Assembly: GCA_017447445.1 (NCBI GenBank)
Contig: JAFSNK010000021.1
Coordinates: forward strand, 122,514 to 186,513
DNA from: Clostridia bacterium
GTDB taxonomy: Bacteria > Bacillota > Clostridia > Oscillospirales > CAG-382
DNA: 64,000 nt
Direction of reading: 5' to 3'
A program made the translations under genes and the position numbers. Shown one piece after another: positions 50,077 through 54,556 of the stretch. The notes under the pieces are model-generated. The model did not search any database, was not told where the DNA came from, and worked only from the letters and a program-made list of their open reading frames with translations. Numbering within the stretch: position 1 is the first letter of the stretch; each line of letters starts with the position of its first letter.

Positions 50077-50153
50077 CTGGGTGTGGCGCAGTTTGGTAGC
50101 GCGCTACCTTGGGGTGGTAGAGGCCGCTGGTTCAAGTCCAGTCACTCAGACCA
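50077..50153 (+). tRNA. tRNA-Pro(GGG)
   Basis: Cloverleaf; anticodon arm CTACC-TTGGGGT-GGTAG; CCA end. Confidence 0.96.
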
Positions 50154-50363
50154 TGCTGAGTGTTCATAACGCAAGTGAGTTATGGACACTCAGCTTTTTT
50201 ATATTTTTTATATTTGTTACTGCTTGCAGGCTCGATTGGGCCTGCTCTTTTTCTTTCAGCGGATATTGCAGGTTAAGCGGTTTTATAAAGCGCGTAACGT
50301 AACCCACTATGACACTTTCACCCGGGCTGAAAAGATTCAATTCGGTTTATATTGATAATTCTC

Positions 50364-50556
50364 TTGATTTTAGCAAAAATATGTGCTAAAATGAATGTGC
50401 GACACAATTCTATATCGCCTCTATTAATGAGAGACCGCATTTTTATTTGGTAAAAATGCACTCTCTTTTCGTGCGTCTCTCATAGATGGCGGAATTGTGT
50501 CGCAGCAATCGGAGTTGTGCGTTTTTCGGTGCGTAGCTCCGGCTGCGCACTTTTTT
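50364..50556 (+). promoter_or_regulatory. Promoter plus structured attenuator-type leader
   Basis: TTGATT-17-TAAAAT; 13-bp stem 50398-50410/50492-50504; terminator 50529-50556 with competing strand 50511-50520. Confidence 0.72.
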
Positions 50557-50577
50557 ATTCAATAAGGAGAAAGAAAA

Positions 50578-52416
50578 ATGCAAGAACTGAAACTGACGGG
50601 CTTTCCGTCCATCGACAAGCCGTGGCTGAAATACTATAAAGAAGGCGCTGAAGAAAGAGCGCTCAATATCCCTGAAAACAAAACCGTTTGGGACGTTATT
50701 GAAGAAAAACTATATGAGCATATCAACATTCCTGCAATCGAATACTTCGGCAGAGTCATTTCTCGAAAAGAGTTTATCGACCTTGTTTATACTTGGGCAA
50801 AGGCATTCAAAGCAATGGGCGTAGAAGAAGACGAGATCGTTGCGTATTACGGCCCGTTCTTTCCTGATGTTGGCGCGATGGCGTTTGCGCTGAATATGAT
50901 CGGCGCATGCGCGTATTTCTTAAAACTTGCCATATCACCCAAAGCGCTTGCCGAAGAAACTAAGAATTGTAGATTTGCGATATGCTTTGAGGATATGTGG
51001 AAGAATGTTGCTAATGAGTTTTCAAAAGACCGTTTTAAAAATGTTATCATAATAAACGCTATAGATGGAATGGCAACACCGAAAAAACAAATTGCTTTTC
51101 TTTTGAAAAAGTTAAAGTTCAAATCAAAGAATCAATTCAATGGAGAAAAATACTTTTCTGTCAGAGAGGCAAAGAAACTAGCAAAGACATATACGGGCGT
51201 TGTTAAAGCACAGTTCGCTCCCGATCGCCCCGCTTTTATTACTTCTTCAAGCGGAACTACCGTTAATGGAGTGGTAAAGGGGTGTGTAGCAACCAACGAA
51301 TCGATTGTTTCTCAAATTTTCATAAATGTTAATTCAGAAGCTAAATGCTCCCCCGGGGATACGTGTATGACAAATTTTCCCCCAACAGCTTCGACATCTT
51401 TGGACTGCCTCTTTATAATCCCACTGTTTGAAGGGTTAACGACTATTTTTGATCCACGTGTTTCCGAAAACGATTTTTACAATCAGCTTACCCGCAAAAA
51501 GCCAAATTTAGTCATCGCCACAGGAAGTATGTGGGAAGCTTTCTTTAATACTATTTCTCAAAAGAATCATAAAAATATTGATTTAAGCCATAGTAAATCC
51601 TGGATTATTGGTGGCGAAGGAACAGATATTCAAAAATTTCGAAAATGGAATAATATAGTTTTAAAATCTAACGGAGATAAACTAACATGCGGTTATGGAT
51701 CGTCTGAACTTTTTTCTGCCATTTGTCGCTGGATGTCGTTCATTGAAAATGATTATTCAAAACCAATTATGAGCGTTGGAATTCCATATGTAGGAATTAC
51801 AGTGGGAATATTCGACAAAAACGGAAACGAGAAAAAATATAATCAACGTGGTGAACTATGGATAAAAAGCAAATCCGCGATGAAGTGCTACTACAACAAA
51901 CCGGAACTAACTTCACAGACAAAGATCGACGGCTGGATTCATACCGGTGACCTTGCAGAAATAGATGAGAACGGCTTTGTCTATATTTGGGGCAGAGTAA
52001 AAGATACTGTTGAAGACAATGTAGGAAATAAGCTGTATTTGTTCGATATAGCATATAAAATAAAAGAAAAAGACTTTATTGATGACGCGATCGTTCTGCA
52101 AATGAAAACAAACAAGGAGACTGTTTCGCTTGTTGCGCATATTGTTTGGGACGGAAATCCTTCTGTTGAGGAACAAAAAAAGCATTTTAAAGAACTCAAT
52201 GCGCTTATGGAGGACTACCTTCCGTCGACTTTTGAAATGGCGGCGTATTCCGTCCACAATATTATGCTGCCGTATTCGCCGACTACCTTGAAAAAAGACA
52301 AAAACCGCCTGTCAAAACAAACAGACGGATATATTCAGGTGATTGACGGCGAAATCAAAAACATTAATTTCGTGATGGGTGATAACGATAAATACAAAAT
52401 GATTATCAAGGATTAA
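50578..52416 (+). CDS. Class I adenylate-forming (AMP-binding) enzyme
   Basis: TSSSGTT..KG, GYGSSE, WIHTGD, GR.KD; AAGGAG RBS. Confidence 0.85.
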   Translation: MQELKLTGFPSIDKPWLKYYKEGAEERALNIPENKTVWDVIEEKLYEHINIPAIEYFGRVISRKEFIDLVYTWAKAFKAMGVEEDEIVAYYGPFFPDVGAMAFALNMIGACAYFLKLAISPKALAEETKNCRFAICFEDMWKNVANEFSKDRFKNVIIINAIDGMATPKKQIAFLLKKLKFKSKNQFNGEKYFSVREAKKLAKTYTGVVKAQFAPDRPAFITSSSGTTVNGVVKGCVATNESIVSQIFINVNSEAKCSPGDTCMTNFPPTASTSLDCLFIIPLFEGLTTIFDPRVSENDFYNQLTRKKPNLVIATGSMWEAFFNTISQKNHKNIDLSHSKSWIIGGEGTDIQKFRKWNNIVLKSNGDKLTCGYGSSELFSAICRWMSFIENDYSKPIMSVGIPYVGITVGIFDKNGNEKKYNQRGELWIKSKSAMKCYYNKPELTSQTKIDGWIHTGDLAEIDENGFVYIWGRVKDTVEDNVGNKLYLFDIAYKIKEKDFIDDAIVLQMKTNKETVSLVAHIVWDGNPSVEEQKKHFKELNALMEDYLPSTFEMAAYSVHNIMLPYSPTTLKKDKNRLSKQTDGYIQVIDGEIKNINFVMGDNDKYKMIIKD

Positions 52417-52501
52417 ATCGATTACCACGCACTTGAAAAACAGGTGGAAGAAATGAGCAAGAGATGAGAAATTTTCACTTGCGTTATGAACAATCGGACC
52501 A

Positions 52502-52538
52502 AAAATCCTCGGATCCGTCTGGGATCCGGGGATTTTTT
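52502..52538 (+). terminator. Intrinsic terminator (probably the original tRNA-Pro terminator)
   Basis: AAAATCCTCGGATCC-GTCTG-GGATCCGGGGATTTTTTT. Confidence 0.8.
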
Positions 52539-52630
52539 TGTTTTGAGAACTTTTTTCTTTGCTATTAGATTTTACCTCTTGCCCCAAAAAACTCAGCGCC
52601 GCCGGGCGCAGTCAAAATGCCGGAAACAGA

Positions 52631-52659
52631 TTGACTTTTCGCCGGAAAAACGTTATACT
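52631..52659 (+). promoter_or_regulatory. Sigma-A promoter
   Basis: TTGACT-17-TATACT. Confidence 0.7.
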
Positions 52660-52843
52660 GTTTTGGTATAAAAGGTTTTTAACAGGTGTCAGCCGGATCC
52701 CGCGGAGCGGGGCGATCACATCCCCGGAGCGGGATAAAACCGTAAGGGCGCAGCCGGTTTTATGACTGATGACAGCGAAGAGATATACAAATGCAACGCG
52801 ACGCATCGTCCGTATATTCAACTATGTATGGGGGAATTGAAAC

Positions 52844-54556
52844 ATGAACAAGAATCCAACCGACAGCAATGCAAAAAAGAGCAATCGTCTGCCCGTTATA
52901 ATCGGAGCGGTCGTATTATTGATCATCATCATTATAGTTCTTGCGGTCTGTCTGAACAAATGCGGCGGCGAAACGAACGATCCGTCCGGAGCTCGATCCG
53001 ACGGATCGATAACGGATGATTCCGGATCCGCCGCGTCCGCGGAAACGCCGGGCGCGGAGTCCGGTACGGAGACCGGTACGGAGTCTGAAACGGTTTCCGG
53101 CACTTCTTCCGACGACTCGCCGGCTCACGTTCACACTTTCGGGGACTGGACGGTTTTGAAGGAGCCCGACTGCCTTACTCCCGGCGCGCGCGAGCGCGTT
53201 TGCTCCGCCTGCGGCGAGAAACAGACCGAGGAGCTGTCGCCGCTGGGGCACGAAGGGCACAATAACGAATGTATAAGATGCGGCAAAAAGGCGCTGACGG
53301 CAGATCATATTGGTTTTGCGCCCTATCCCTACGGCGACGGGATGTGGATAACGAGCGTTCACGGTCTGGACGATTCCGATCTGCTGATCCCGGACGTTCT
53401 GGACGGGCAAAGCGTTACCTGCATCGCGGCGCAAGTCTTTGAAGAGAACGAAACGATCGAGACGGTCTCGCTGCCCGACAGCGTCACGCAATTGGGGACC
53501 TTCACGTTTTACCTCTGCCCGAACCTGCGGATGATCCGTTTCGGCAAAAACATCGGCAATCAGTACACCTCGATCACCGGATACTGTCCGAATATCGATT
53601 ATCTGGTCGTCCCGCCCGAAAACACGCTGCTCCACAGCGATCACAACTGCGTGATCGAGACCGAGAGCAAAAGGCTTTTGTACGGGTGCCGCAACAGCAT
53701 CATCCCCGACGACGGAAGCGTTTTGATCCTCGAATACACGTCGTTTCAAGACTGCACGGGACTGACGTCGATAGTCGTTCCGTCGCCCGTGACCACGATC
53801 GAGAATTGCGCTTTCAACAGTTGTGAGAGTCTCGTTTCCATCGAGATCTCCGACAGCGTCACGTCGATCGGAGAGGAAACGTTTTTATTCTGCAAATCCC
53901 TGAAAAACGTGCGCCTGCCCGCGCACCTGAAGGAACTGAATACAGAACTGTTCGAGTTCTGCGAATCACTTGAAGAGATCACGATCCCGGACGAAGTCGA
54001 AGAAATCTACAGCGGGTGTTTCTACGGATGCACGGCGCTCAAAACCGTCCGTCTGCCGGAAAGTCTGAAAACGATCGGCAATTATGCGTTCCAGAAATGT
54101 TCGTCGCTCGAAAGCATCACGCTTCCCTCGGGGCTCACGCATCTCGGAGAGGCGTTCAAGGAGTGCTCGTCGCTGAAATCGATAGTCATTCCCGACGGCG
54201 TGGAGGAACTGTTCACCGGCGCGTTCATCGACTGTACGTCGCTGACCGACGTAAAACTGCCGAAGGACCTGATCAGGGTCCCGAGACTCCTATTCAGCGG
54301 CTGTACGTCGCTGACCTCAGTCGCAATCACGAACGGCAACGAGATCGAGGAGTACGCGTTTTCCGGCTGCACGGCGCTTAAGAGCGTTACGATACCCGCG
54401 TCGGTCAAATACATAAAACAGGACATTTTCGAAAACTGCACGTCGCTTAAAAGCATTAACTATAGGGGCAGCGCGGAGGACTGGACGAAGATCCGCATCA
54501 GCTCTTCCAACGACGTGCTTGAACGCCTCTCGATCGTATACGATTATAAGGAATAA
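52844..54556 (+). CDS. BspA-like (LRR_5) surface protein with N-terminal TM anchor
   Basis: Repeated FxxCxSLxSIxxPxxVxxI; HVHTFGDW..C..RVCSACGE module. Confidence 0.88.
   Translation: MNKNPTDSNAKKSNRLPVIIGAVVLLIIIIIVLAVCLNKCGGETNDPSGARSDGSITDDSGSAASAETPGAESGTETGTESETVSGTSSDDSPAHVHTFGDWTVLKEPDCLTPGARERVCSACGEKQTEELSPLGHEGHNNECIRCGKKALTADHIGFAPYPYGDGMWITSVHGLDDSDLLIPDVLDGQSVTCIAAQVFEENETIETVSLPDSVTQLGTFTFYLCPNLRMIRFGKNIGNQYTSITGYCPNIDYLVVPPENTLLHSDHNCVIETESKRLLYGCRNSIIPDDGSVLILEYTSFQDCTGLTSIVVPSPVTTIENCAFNSCESLVSIEISDSVTSIGEETFLFCKSLKNVRLPAHLKELNTELFEFCESLEEITIPDEVEEIYSGCFYGCTALKTVRLPESLKTIGNYAFQKCSSLESITLPSGLTHLGEAFKECSSLKSIVIPDGVEELFTGAFIDCTSLTDVKLPKDLIRVPRLLFSGCTSLTSVAITNGNEIEEYAFSGCTALKSVTIPASVKYIKQDIFENCTSLKSINYRGSAEDWTKIRISSSNDVLERLSIVYDYKE

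What the first reader, a model, noticed from the sequence alone, without database searches (positions are those of the whole stretch)
50146..52501. Integrase-less mini-element at tRNA-Pro with a reconstructable symmetric attP
Seen: TGTTCATAACGCAAGTGA (50161-50178) and its exact reverse complement (52475-52492), each next to a copy of the tRNA end (TCAGACCA / TCGGACCA); a GC-rich terminator directly follows the right copy. Joining the ends gives TCACTTGCGTTATGAACA-ATCGGAC-CA-TGCTGAG-TGTTCATAACGCAAGTGA, a 52-bp site whose centre of symmetry is the CA of the tRNA CCA. Established: large serine recombinase attP sites are ~50-bp inverted repeats around a 2-bp crossover. Inference: a ~2.35-kb single-cargo cassette that is mobilised in trans or left by a reduced element. 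The left arm also forms a replacement tRNA terminator (50155-50198).
Basis: partly seen in the sequence, partly recalled or inferred. Interest (0 to 1): 0.85.

Follow-up and report, generated by a model that had tools for sequence, protein, structure and literature searches.

The report
Recombinase-less hitchhiker cassette at tRNA-Pro end
A 2.35-kb single-gene insert sitting exactly behind a proline tRNA gene is a stripped-down member of a family of mobile elements moved by large serine recombinases; it keeps both recombination arms but has no recombinase of its own, so it probably relies on full-length relatives in the same genome to move.

Summary
An exact 18-nt inverted repeat (50161-50178 / 52475-52492) brackets a low-GC insert directly after the CCA of tRNA-Pro(GGG). 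The native tRNA terminator is displaced to the right end.

- The same left arm follows the CCA of two other tRNAs in this genome.
- In many gut Clostridia contigs it follows tRNA-Pro, Leu and Gln genes, always 7 nt after CCA.
- In 17 of 43 informative left ends, a TnpX/TndX-clade large serine recombinase (Resolvase, Recombinase, Zn-ribbon, DUF4368) lies beside it.
- Right arms are the 18-mer plus 9 nt ending in CCA, so the arms are symmetric about CA.
- Full elements (for example L166, 11.5 kb) are Tn4451-like: recombinase, Mob_Pre relaxase and TnpV.

The window element lacks recombinase and relaxase. It keeps both arms, a few terminal recombinase codons and a segment that lies upstream of the relaxase gene in L166 (candidate oriT). 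At least five other elements share this deletion junction at other sites and carry other cargo. The reduced backbone has therefore spread and is not a one-off relic.

Mobility of this particular copy is not shown. It is a new variant of a known kind (CIME or ccr-less SCC logic). A conserved, unclassified attenuator-like leader RNA precedes the cargo.

The parts
50077..50153 (+). tRNA-Pro(GGG), the target. Its terminal CA (50152-50153) is the inferred crossover dinucleotide at attL.
   Evidence: ARAGORN; Rfam tRNA, 60.5 bits. In 28 of 28 ARAGORN-called tRNAs next to family left arms, the tRNA ends exactly 7 nt before the 18-mer.
50154..50178 (+). Left (P') half-site: a 7-nt inner segment (50154-50160) plus the 18-nt arm (50161-50178).
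   Evidence: The same sequence follows tRNA-Leu(TAG) on G000:C25 and tRNA-Pro(CGG) on G000:C39.
50155..50200 (+). Hairpin with U-run formed by the left arm and its complement. It serves as a replacement intrinsic terminator for the tRNA.
   Evidence: 16 pairs, then six T. (-27 kcal/mol, z -6.99).
50226..50270 (.). Second hairpin (50226-50245) and about 20 nt that align with the terminator and last codons of the recombinase gene of full-length relatives. This is the recombinase stub and the left side of the deletion junction.
   Evidence: Alignment A1. tblastn finds no recombinase coding remnant at E<1.
50271..50336 (+). Segment homologous to the region about 180 nt upstream of the Mob_Pre relaxase gene of L166 (L166 8240-8301). 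It holds an inverted repeat followed by a conserved 16-mer. Candidate oriT (inferred).
   Evidence: blastn, 79% over 67 nt. Hits in L166, L179, L187, L043, L195, L164, L176, L190 and L171. Alignment A1. The conserved motif lies 92-133 nt after the arm in 6 recombinase-less elements.
50364..50392 (+). Promoter-like site: TTGATT, 17 nt, TAAAAT, with TG before the -10.
   Evidence: This is a consensus match only.
50396..50558 (+). Structured leader with a closing stem (50398-50410 / 50492-50504), an apical hairpin, alternative pairings and an intrinsic terminator (50528-50551 plus U-run) just before the ribosome-binding site.
   Evidence: I15, I16, I18; z -5.35; 8 of 22 pairs with compensatory changes.
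50578..52416 (+). Cargo ORF of 612 aa, an adenylate-forming (AMP-binding / acyl-CoA-ligase-like) enzyme of unknown substrate.
   Evidence: Pfam PF00501, 1.1e-35. NCBIfam matches lie below curated cut-offs. The nearest solved chains are FadD5/FadD8 and 4-coumarate-CoA ligases, E about 1e-15. At least 120 homologue clusters at 57-82% identity.
52417..52467 (+). In-frame 16-codon relic after the stop codon. It matches the C-terminus of another AMP-ligase that ends right before the right arm in L200. It is the remains of an earlier cargo gene.
   Evidence: Translations. The same relic sits in the same position in L190.
52475..52501 (-). Right (P) half-site: the 18-nt arm (52475-52492), a 7-nt inner segment (52493-52499) and CA (52500-52501).
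   Evidence: About 32 family right ends have the 18-mer plus 9 nt ending in CCA.
52501..52545 (+). Displaced native terminator of tRNA-Pro(GGG): A-run, GC hairpin, T-run.
   Evidence: Unoccupied tRNA-Pro(GGG) genes of five other species carry the same kind of terminator directly after CCA.

Best explanation
Window 50154-52501 is a non-autonomous derivative of a family of Tn4451/Tn5397-like integrative mobilizable elements. It has no recombinase and no relaxase.

The family's large serine recombinase (TnpX/TndX clade, with DUF4368) inserts elements exactly behind the CCA of tRNA genes, mainly Pro, Leu and Gln. The element-borne site is two 18- to 22-nt inverted half-sites about 16 bp apart and centred on a CA. 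Recombination at that CA with the CA of the tRNA's CCA has two effects. One half-site lands directly after the tRNA, where with its complement it makes a new terminator. The other half-site lands in front of the displaced native terminator.

The window copy keeps both half-sites, the recombinase gene's terminator and last few codons, and a segment that lies upstream of the relaxase gene in full elements (candidate oriT). It also keeps a promoter, an attenuator-like leader and one cargo gene, an AMP-binding ligase.

The most likely mechanism is excision and reintegration by a recombinase supplied in trans from co-resident full-length relatives, and possibly transfer by their relaxase.

Shown: the anatomy, the family association, the shared deletion junction, and the spread of the reduced backbone. 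Inferred: the crossover at CA, oriT function, and present-day mobility of this copy.
For: Same arm elsewhere in this genome.
- The arm follows CCA of tRNA-Leu(TAG) on C25 and tRNA-Pro(CGG) on C39.
- Both contigs stop 140 nt into an identical repeat.
- That repeat ends with the last codons of a recombinase gene. I read these by eye against the L166 C-terminus printed.

Intact family recombinases in G000.
- C20 is 60% identical to the L166 recombinase and C5 is 55% identical. Both lie downstream of diverged arms that follow tRNAs.

Full-length element.
- L166 (11.5 kb, the same 18-mers at both ends) encodes a recombinase, Mob_Pre, AAA_25, cargo and TnpV.
- Its recombinase is 38.5% identical to annotated TndX.
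- Its best solved match is the TnpX catalytic domain, E 5.9e-36.

Junction geometry.
- 47 left-type junctions were examined. ARAGORN called a tRNA at 28 of them, and in all 28 the gap to the 18-mer is exactly 7 nt (Pro 15, Leu 11, Gln 2).
- About 32 right ends are the 18-mer plus 9 nt ending in CCA, often followed by an A-run terminator.
- Insertions at non-tRNA sites share only CA (L160, L164, L202).
- Tandem junctions of right half-site, CA and another element's left half-site occur in L169, L206, L171 and L191.

A spreading reduced backbone.
- The window (identical to L201), L190, L195, L043, L171 and L164 share the same join of recombinase stub to oriT-like segment, 92-133 nt after the arm.
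- They sit at different sites and, where the cargo region is on the contig, carry different cargo: AMP-ligases only 30% identical, a 739-aa protein with no Pfam match, and an N6 DNA methylase.
- Three further complete recombinase-less elements bounded by both arms occur in one Faecousia MAG: L157, L158 and L159.

Other support.
- Unoccupied tRNA-Pro(GGG) sites occur in five other species of the genus.
- Low GC, and no close homologue of the cargo in 0 of 400 (order) and 0 of 398 (class) other genomes at E<=1e-100, fit acquisition from outside.
- Literature: Tn4451 recombines through 2-bp identical sequences, and TnpX is the only element-encoded protein needed (passages of PMC5704250). DUF4368 marks the multi-targeting clade that includes TndX-like enzymes (passages of PMC10083194).
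Against: - No circle junction, empty site or excision product was seen for this copy.
- In contigs of three other studies that hold near-identical flanks, no contig joined across the insert.
- The interior of the C25/C39 elements is missing from the assembly. A cognate intact recombinase with identical arms is therefore inferred and was not read.
- The C20 and C5 recombinases belong to elements whose arms differ from the window's at 4-5 of 18 positions.
- The 7-nt inner segment of the window's right half-site differs at 2 of 7 positions from the commonest family form, which could lower activity.
- The oriT assignment rests only on position and conservation.
The proportions are therefore not population estimates.
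Confidence: 0.75

Rival explanations
1. This copy is an inert relic. A full-length element at tRNA-Pro(GGG) lost its recombinase-relaxase block by deletion, and the remnant is now fixed and immobile, vertically inherited chromosome.
For: No recombinase or relaxase lies inside the element. A recombinase stub is present. No excision product was seen. The only other copy of this exact element (L201, 99.7% identical over 3893 nt) sits at the same locus. That copy has T instead of C in the CA-bearing CCA at its right end, as expected if the site is no longer under selection there.
Against: The deletion junction is shared with elements at other tRNAs, in other hosts and with other cargo, so the deletion predates this insertion. 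Both 18-mers are still identical to those of full-length elements, while the backbone shared with L190 has diverged to about 70-80%. Arm-identical elements carrying recombinase-gene ends co-reside in the genome.
Confidence: 0.2
2. A remnant of a classical tyrosine-integrase tRNA island, with the tRNA-end copies (TCAGACCA / TCGGACCA) as its att core repeats.
For: tRNA 3' ends are the usual targets of tyrosine integrases (passage of PMC5704250). In L201 a tyrosine integrase (PF00589) lies just upstream of the last 14 nt of the same tRNA.
Against: The two junctions of this element share only 5 nt (GACCA). Insertions of the family at other tRNAs and at non-tRNA sites share only CCA or CA. The arms are inverted, symmetric about CA, and linked to serine recombinases at a fixed distance in 17 loci. 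The L201 tyrosine-integrase element is a separate neighbour with its own 14-nt tRNA-end repeat.
Confidence: 0.02
3. A transposase-driven element: a MITE-like DDE element with terminal inverted repeats, or an IS200/IS605-type element with end hairpins that targets ...ACCA.
For: Inverted repeats near both ends. A hairpin at the left end directly 3' of a fixed tetranucleotide.
Against: There is no target-site duplication next to the repeats. The flanking 7 nt and 9 nt differ and are element-borne. There is no hairpin at the right end. No transposase, TnpA or TnpB was found in the complete family members examined. The repeats are subterminal, with constant 7-nt and 9-nt offsets.
Confidence: 0.03

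Closest known systems
Tn4451/Tn4453 (TnpX) and Tn5397 (TndX) mobilizable or conjugative transposons of clostridia
   Same: Full-length relatives carry a large serine recombinase with DUF4368. It is 38.5% identical to annotated TndX, and its best solved match is the TnpX catalytic domain. They also carry a Mob_Pre (MobV) relaxase and TnpV. The inferred recombination runs through a 2-bp identity, and several copies and sites occur per genome. Passages of PMC5704250 describe the 2-bp mechanism and the multicopy state of Tn4451/3.
   Different: The crossover dinucleotide is CA, not the GA listed for Tn4451 (Table 1 of PMC5704250). Targets are overwhelmingly the exact 3' end of tRNA genes, not 'numerous sites'. 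The element-borne site is a near-perfect 21-22-nt inverted repeat that doubles as a tRNA terminator. The window element itself has none of the Tn4451 genes.
CIMEs (cis-mobilizable elements): decayed ICE/IME remnants that keep attL and attR
   Same: [quoted passage not shown] Tandem arrays with other elements occur in the family. 'Remnants' are also recorded in Faecalibacterium (passages of PMC12084326).
   Different: CIMEs are described as decay products mobilised in cis after accretion, mostly for tyrosine-integrase elements. Here one reduced backbone (arms, recombinase stub, oriT-like segment) recurs at different sites with different cargo. It therefore behaves like a propagating non-autonomous lineage served by a serine recombinase in trans.
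ccr-less SCC / pseudo-SCC cassettes of staphylococci
   Same: Cargo cassettes without their own large serine recombinase, bounded by that recombinase's sites, docked at one conserved chromosomal site, often in tandem, and moved by CcrAB/CcrC from other elements. The L166 recombinase gives weak NCBIfam matches to CcrA, CcrB and CcrC, far below their cut-offs.
   Different: The target is the tRNA CCA end, not the 3' end of rlmH. The recombinase clade, host group and sites are all different.
Dehalococcoides ssrA-specific genomic islands (PMC3146451; seen only as a search listing and abstract)
   Same: Islands integrated at a small stable RNA gene (the tmRNA gene ssrA) in a paper that also mentions serine recombinases and cis-mobilizable elements.
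   Different: I did not read the text, so the recombinase type and site structure were not compared. The host and target are different.

Membership tests
Large-serine-recombinase integrative element (Tn4451/Tn5397-like IME) | Encodes a large serine recombinase (Resolvase + Recombinase + Zn-ribbon domains) | tested here: not met
   The only long ORF in 50154-52501 is the AMP-binding protein. tblastn with two family recombinases gives nothing at E<1. The feature is met in relatives with the same arms.
Large-serine-recombinase integrative element (Tn4451/Tn5397-like IME) | Ends reconstruct an attP-type site: inverted half-sites about 20-25 bp long, symmetric about a 2-bp crossover shared with the target | tested here: met
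   Exact 18-mers lie 7 nt to either side of CA. The same geometry holds in 28 of 28 tRNA-adjacent left ends and about 32 right ends. The position of the crossover is inferred from symmetry and from junctions that share only CA.
Large-serine-recombinase integrative element (Tn4451/Tn5397-like IME) | Encodes a relaxase and carries an oriT | tested here: inconclusive
   There is no relaxase. A 66-nt segment is homologous to the region upstream of the Mob_Pre gene of L166. Nicking was not tested.
Large-serine-recombinase integrative element (Tn4451/Tn5397-like IME) | Excises as a circle and leaves an empty site | not testable with these tools
   Only contigs were available, and no joint across the element was listed. 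Raw reads of the source sample were not on hand.
CIME (cis-mobilizable element) | Lacks integration and transfer genes but retains attL and attR of a known integrative element family | tested here: met
   (no such genes). (both arms identical to those of recombinase-bearing elements). Definition from PMC5704250.
Tyrosine-integrase tRNA island | Tyrosine integrase plus direct repeats of the tRNA 3' segment that form the core | tested here: not met
   There is no integrase in the element. The junctions share only GACCA here and only CCA or CA across the family.
DDE transposon / MITE | Terminal inverted repeats flanked by a target-site duplication | tested here: not met
   The repeats are subterminal, and the adjoining 7 nt and 9 nt differ and are not duplications.
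IS200/IS605-type element | Subterminal hairpins at both ends and a Y1 transposase or TnpB | tested here: not met
   Only the left end has a hairpin. No such genes occur in the window element or in L157-L160 and L166.
ANL adenylate-forming enzymes (cargo protein) | AMP-binding domain with the phosphate-binding loop and a C-terminal lysine motif | tested here: inconclusive
   PF00501 matches at 1.1e-35. The alignment to the L190 protein shows two extra residues in the glycine-rich loop of the window protein, and K instead of G before the conserved lysine region. No NCBIfam cut-off is reached. The motif names are recalled.

The most novel reading that the evidence does not exclude
tRNA CCA ends in gut Clostridia serve as docking sites for a gene-cassette system run by serine recombinases. 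A minority of elements carry the TnpX/TndX-like recombinase and a relaxase. A larger population of recombinase-less cassettes consists of two palindromic half-sites, an oriT-like segment and often a shared attenuator leader with a single cargo gene. These cassettes are shuffled in trans, stacked in tandem and exchanged between species. In function this resembles integron cassettes or SCC, but it is built on a palindromic site centred on the CA of CCA that also restores tRNA termination.
Probability: 0.4. Interest if true: 0.75.

Novelty: new variant of a known kind. Interest (0 to 1): 0.6.

Why it matters
Three points would matter if this holds.

1. It defines, with sequence-level geometry, a serine-recombinase family whose natural target is the exact 3' end of several tRNA genes. 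In the IME review table I read, all serine-recombinase IMEs sit inside protein genes or at 'numerous sites'. The main text of the large recombinase survey does not mention tRNA.

2. Recombinase-less derivatives are not only debris. One reduced backbone recurs at different sites with different cargo. In the sampled left ends, 26 lack an adjacent recombinase gene and 17 have one (the sample is seeded by the arm and includes one chance match). This bears on how accessory genes move in gut Firmicutes and on how mobile elements are counted, because screens based on integrases miss these.

3. A short palindromic donor site with a defined 2-bp core, together with many natural target sites, is the kind of pairing sought for genome-engineering recombinases.

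Tried and rejected
Empty site or excision in the same species. I laid contigs of four runs from four studies. X5, X6 and X9 hold both flanks with few differences. None of their listed contigs covers most of the cargo, and no joint across 50154-52501 was listed. Right-flank contigs of X5 and X9 start to match at 52497, with 190 and 89 unlaid letters before that point. This fits an empty site, another element or a tandem equally well, so I draw no conclusion. X3 (same study as the likely source) holds the element in pieces.

Interior of the C25/C39 elements. No other contig of G000 continues the shared 140-nt tail.

Right end of the G000:C20 element. No inverted copy of its own arm was found downstream on the contig, so its right boundary stays unknown.

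Synteny-based empty site. The right flank (BspA-LRR gene) gave no listed match in 60 genomes of the genus, so only the tRNA side could be compared.

Cargo context in other genomes. There was no match at E<=1e-100 in 400 genomes of the order or in 398 scored genomes of the class. Many of them lie on 2-4 kb contigs, which fits assembly breaks at repeated arms but does not show it.

Recombinase remnant inside the element. tblastn found nothing. Only a stub of a few codons is visible in the DNA alignment.

Rfam. No family matches the arms or the leader. The weak His_leader, frnS and L20_leader matches lie far below gathering scores and are terminator look-alikes.

Literature. Searches found no description of a serine-recombinase element inserting at the tRNA CCA end, nor of a propagating recombinase-less derivative. 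Supplements were closed. The attachment-site tables of PMC10083194 and Tables S2/S3 of PMC12084326 may already list such elements.

Loose scripts. The first pattern script was too loose and only produced noise. In one search the right-half set was contaminated by chance matches, so I use only its left-half consensus.
Full report
OBSERVATION

The 18-mer at 50161-50178 recurs once in the window, as its exact reverse complement at 52475-52492. The chance expectation is 0.02 matches, and none of 100 shuffles gave two. With one mismatch the repeat is 21 nt long.

tRNA-Pro(GGG) ends at 50153. The left arm therefore begins 7 nt after the CCA. The right arm is followed by 9 nt that end in GGACCA at 52501.

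Directly after that lies an A-run, a 16-pair GC-rich hairpin and a T-run. The left arm and its complement form a 16-pair hairpin followed by six T. It folds at -27 kcal/mol with z -7.0. This is a plausible replacement terminator for the tRNA.

GC is 0.32-0.44 inside the insert and 0.55-0.65 outside it. The only long ORF inside is a 612-aa AMP-binding protein.

THE ARM IS A REPEATED, tRNA-LINKED SEQUENCE IN THIS GENOME

The window is G000:C17. The same 18-mer, with the same 7-nt lead-in and hairpin, follows the CCA of tRNA-Leu(TAG) near the end of contig C25 and of tRNA-Pro(CGG) near the end of C39.

Both contigs stop 140 nt into an identical sequence, and no other contig continues it. This is the signature of a multi-copy element that broke the assembly. 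By my reading, the shared tail ends with the last codons of a recombinase gene, identical to the C-terminus of the L166 recombinase printed.

Diverged versions of the arm follow two further tRNAs, on C20 and C5. Downstream of each, reading towards the tRNA, is a 566-580-aa protein with Resolvase, Recombinase, Zn_ribbon_recom and DUF4368 domains. On C20 it is followed by ParB, a MobA/VirD2 relaxase and NikA.

FAMILY ANATOMY FROM PUBLIC SEQUENCE

I ran two scans. The exact 18-mer against metagenome contigs returned 51 stretches.

Left ends.
- After removing duplicates there were 47 left-type junctions, meaning an arm followed by its complementary stem. One of them (L077) looks like a chance match.
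- ARAGORN called a tRNA at 28 of them. In all 28 the tRNA ends exactly 7 nt before the 18-mer: Pro 15, Leu 11, Gln 2.
- At least six more show a tRNA T-arm and acceptor end by eye.
- The rest lie behind non-tRNA sequence that still ends in CA, or behind another element's right half-site.

Right ends.
- About 32 right ends consist of the 18-mer plus 9 nt ending in CCA. One 9-mer is the commonest.
- They are often followed by an A-run and a hairpin terminator.

Putting the two ends together gives two 18-mers 16 bp apart with CA at the centre. In canonical members the inverted repeat extends to 21-22 nt. Insertions at non-tRNA sites (L160, L164, L202) share only the CA with the element.

Junctions in which one element's right half-site is followed, after CA, by the left half-site of a different family member show tandem stacking (L169, L206, L171, L191).

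This geometry is what large serine recombinases use. The association was tested directly. Of 49 distinct left ends, 6 had too little downstream sequence. Of the other 43, 17 have a family recombinase gene ending about 70-95 nt after the arm.

WHAT THE FULL-LENGTH ELEMENT IS

L166 is an 11.7-kb metagenome contig with the window's 18-mers at both ends. From the tRNA side it encodes:
- the recombinase (578 aa),
- a Mob_Pre relaxase,
- an AAA_25 protein,
- a LytTR two-component system,
- two ABC transporter proteins,
- TnpV at the right end.

The recombinase is 38.5% identical over 92% of its length to proteins annotated TndX in enterococcal plasmids. Its best solved match is the TnpX catalytic domain, E 5.9e-36.

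These are therefore Tn4451/Tn5397-like integrative mobilizable elements. Passages I read in PMC5704250 say that Tn4451 recombines through 2-bp identical sequences, that TnpX is the only element protein required, and that such elements occur in several copies. Passages in PMC10083194 place DUF4368 recombinases, including TndX-like ones, in a multi-targeting clade.

WHAT THE WINDOW ELEMENT IS

It has no recombinase and no relaxase. Aligned with L166, it shares four things:
- the left half-site and hairpin,
- the hairpin that terminates the recombinase gene and about 20 nt that cover its last codons,
- joined directly to that, a 66-nt segment (50271-50336) which in L166 lies about 180 nt upstream of the relaxase gene, 3.3 kb further in,
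- the right half-site.

The recombinase-relaxase block is thus deleted. The retained segment holds an inverted repeat followed by a conserved 16-mer. I call it a candidate oriT from position and conservation only.

After it come a promoter-like site, a structured leader, the ligase gene, and a 16-codon in-frame relic behind the stop codon. That relic matches the C-terminus of a different AMP-ligase that ends right before the right arm in L200.

THE REDUCED BACKBONE HAS SPREAD

The same join of recombinase stub to oriT-like segment is found in five other elements:
- L190, after another tRNA, in a 3.7-kb metagenome contig,
- L195, after tRNA-Pro(TGG),
- L043, after tRNA-Pro(TGG) in a Ruminococcus MAG,
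- L171, in tandem behind another element,
- L164, behind a non-tRNA site.

L190 is a complete second mini-element of about 2.25 kb. It has the same order of parts, including the leader, the first 20 or so codons and the 3' relic. Its backbone is about 70-81% identical to the window's in DNA. Its ligase is only 30% identical in protein.

L195 carries a 739-aa protein with no Pfam match, and L043 carries an N6 DNA methylase.

A shared junction at different sites, in different hosts and with different cargo means one ancestral deletion derivative has been moved repeatedly. It cannot have done that by itself. This is the main evidence for mobilisation in trans.

Independently, one Faecousia MAG holds three complete elements of 4.0-6.9 kb bounded by both arms and without any recombinase (L157-L159).

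In the sampled left ends, 26 (6 with the shared junction and 20 others, one of them the chance match L077) have no recombinase gene within 2.6 kb, against 17 that do. These proportions come from arm-seeded, capped scans and are not population estimates.

EMPTY SITE

No genome of the same species without the insert was available. In five other species of the genus the identical tRNA-Pro(GGG) is followed directly by an A-run, a GC hairpin and a T-run. In a sixth it is followed by a short terminator hairpin, and in a seventh by another member of this element family.

The sequence after 52501 in the window is of the first kind. This supports the predicted pre-insertion site by analogy.

A metagenome contig (L201) carries the same mini-element at the same locus, 99.7% identical over 3893 nt. 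There a separate element with a tyrosine integrase lies between the tRNA body and the last 14 nt of the tRNA. The CCA at that copy's right end reads CTA. If CA is the crossover, that copy should no longer recombine with its left end.

MECHANISM, WITH STATUS OF EACH STEP

1. The family recombinase binds two inverted half-sites on the circular element. This is inferred from the geometry and from family membership.
2. It exchanges strands at the central CA with the CA of a tRNA's CCA. This is inferred from symmetry, from junctions that share only CA, and from tandem junctions.
3. The half-site that lands after the tRNA supplies a terminator. The hairpin and U-run are shown; their function is inferred.
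4. The window element offers the same two half-sites and so can be excised and reinserted by a recombinase made elsewhere in the cell. This is inferred; it is supported by the spread of the reduced backbone and by co-resident elements with identical left ends.
5. Transfer between cells would use the retained oriT-like segment with a relaxase and mating pore supplied in trans. This is speculative.

COMPARISON WITH KNOWN SYSTEMS

It works like a Tn4451/Tn5397-family element but fails membership as an autonomous IME, because it has no recombinase and no relaxase.

It meets the published definition of a CIME. It differs in that it looks like a propagating lineage and not like local decay, and in being served by a serine recombinase.

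It resembles ccr-less SCC cassettes in logic.

The target choice differs from the serine-recombinase IMEs tabulated in PMC5704250, which sit at internal sites of protein genes or at 'numerous sites (GA)'.

My literature searches found no description of this target or of such derivatives. Supplementary tables that could hold them were closed.

VERDICT

The element is a new variant of a known kind. Interest is moderate to high at 0.6. The geometry is unusually clean and the recombinase-less lineage is informative, but non-autonomous derivatives of integrative elements are an established concept, and activity of this copy is unproven.

SIDE FINDING

The leader at 50396-50558 is a conserved structured RNA. 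Homologous leaders precede unrelated genes in other genomes. RNAalifold on 11 sequences gives 22 pairs, 8 of them with compensatory changes. No Rfam family matches. A covariance model finds 1-5 copies in 28 of 61 genomes of the genus, and G000 has only this one. Its alternative pairings look like a transcription attenuator with an unknown effector.

Noticed in passing
window 50396-50558 (+): A conserved structured leader lies in front of the cargo gene. It has a 13-bp closing stem, an apical hairpin with a conserved GGUAAAAA stretch, a downstream near-copy of the hairpin's 5' half, and an intrinsic terminator just before the ribosome-binding site. Homologous leaders precede AMP-ligases, a BspA-LRR protein, zinc-ribbon membrane proteins and lipoproteins. 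Of 22 predicted pairs, 8 show compensatory changes. There is no Rfam match. A covariance model hits 28 of 61 genomes of the genus with 1-5 copies each. It may be an unclassified attenuator or riboswitch-like element carried on mobile DNA.
   Followed up: partly
L201 1-2135 (metagenome contig, 99.7% identical to window 50136-54028): In this near-identical strain, a separate element lies between the body of tRNA-Pro(GGG) and its last 14 nt, directly upstream of the mini-element. It carries a tyrosine integrase (PF00589, 395 aa) and a ParB-HTH protein. The site is thus a tandem hot spot for two recombinase types. The same copy has CTA instead of CCA at the mini-element's right junction.
   Followed up: partly
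window 52417-52467; L190 2294-2344; L200 (reverse strand) just before its right arm: A 16-codon relic of an AMP-ligase C-terminus sits in frame behind the stop codon of two cargo ligases that are only 30% identical. Their leaders and first 20 or so codons are conserved. This suggests repeated replacement of the gene body between conserved flanks.
   Followed up: partly
L199, L202, L205, L164 (metagenome loci): Several family insertions lie in the CA at the centre of another conserved sequence that occurs in both orientations (...TCCTATTTCAACCGTC..CA..). It may be the palindromic site of a different element family used as a secondary target.
   Followed up: no
G088 (Faecousia MAG): L157 204-290: Two right half-sites lie in tandem 69 nt apart at one end of a 4-kb recombinase-less element. 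The tRNA-like left flank was not called by ARAGORN. This is possibly the scar of a lost neighbour.
   Followed up: no
L030 (G013:C19), directly after tRNA-Pro(GGG): An unoccupied-looking tRNA-Pro(GGG) is followed by a short terminator hairpin. Its first 11-12 nt equal the start of the family's consensus left half-site. This is either chance or a hint that the half-site mimics, or derives from, a native tRNA terminator.
   Followed up: no
window 52844-54556 (+): The gene to the right of the insert encodes a 570-aa BspA-type leucine-rich-repeat protein (PF13306, 2.5e-90). It has no listed DNA match in 60 other genomes of the genus. A related LRR protein is cargo of a recombinase-less element in another genome (L158).
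   Followed up: no
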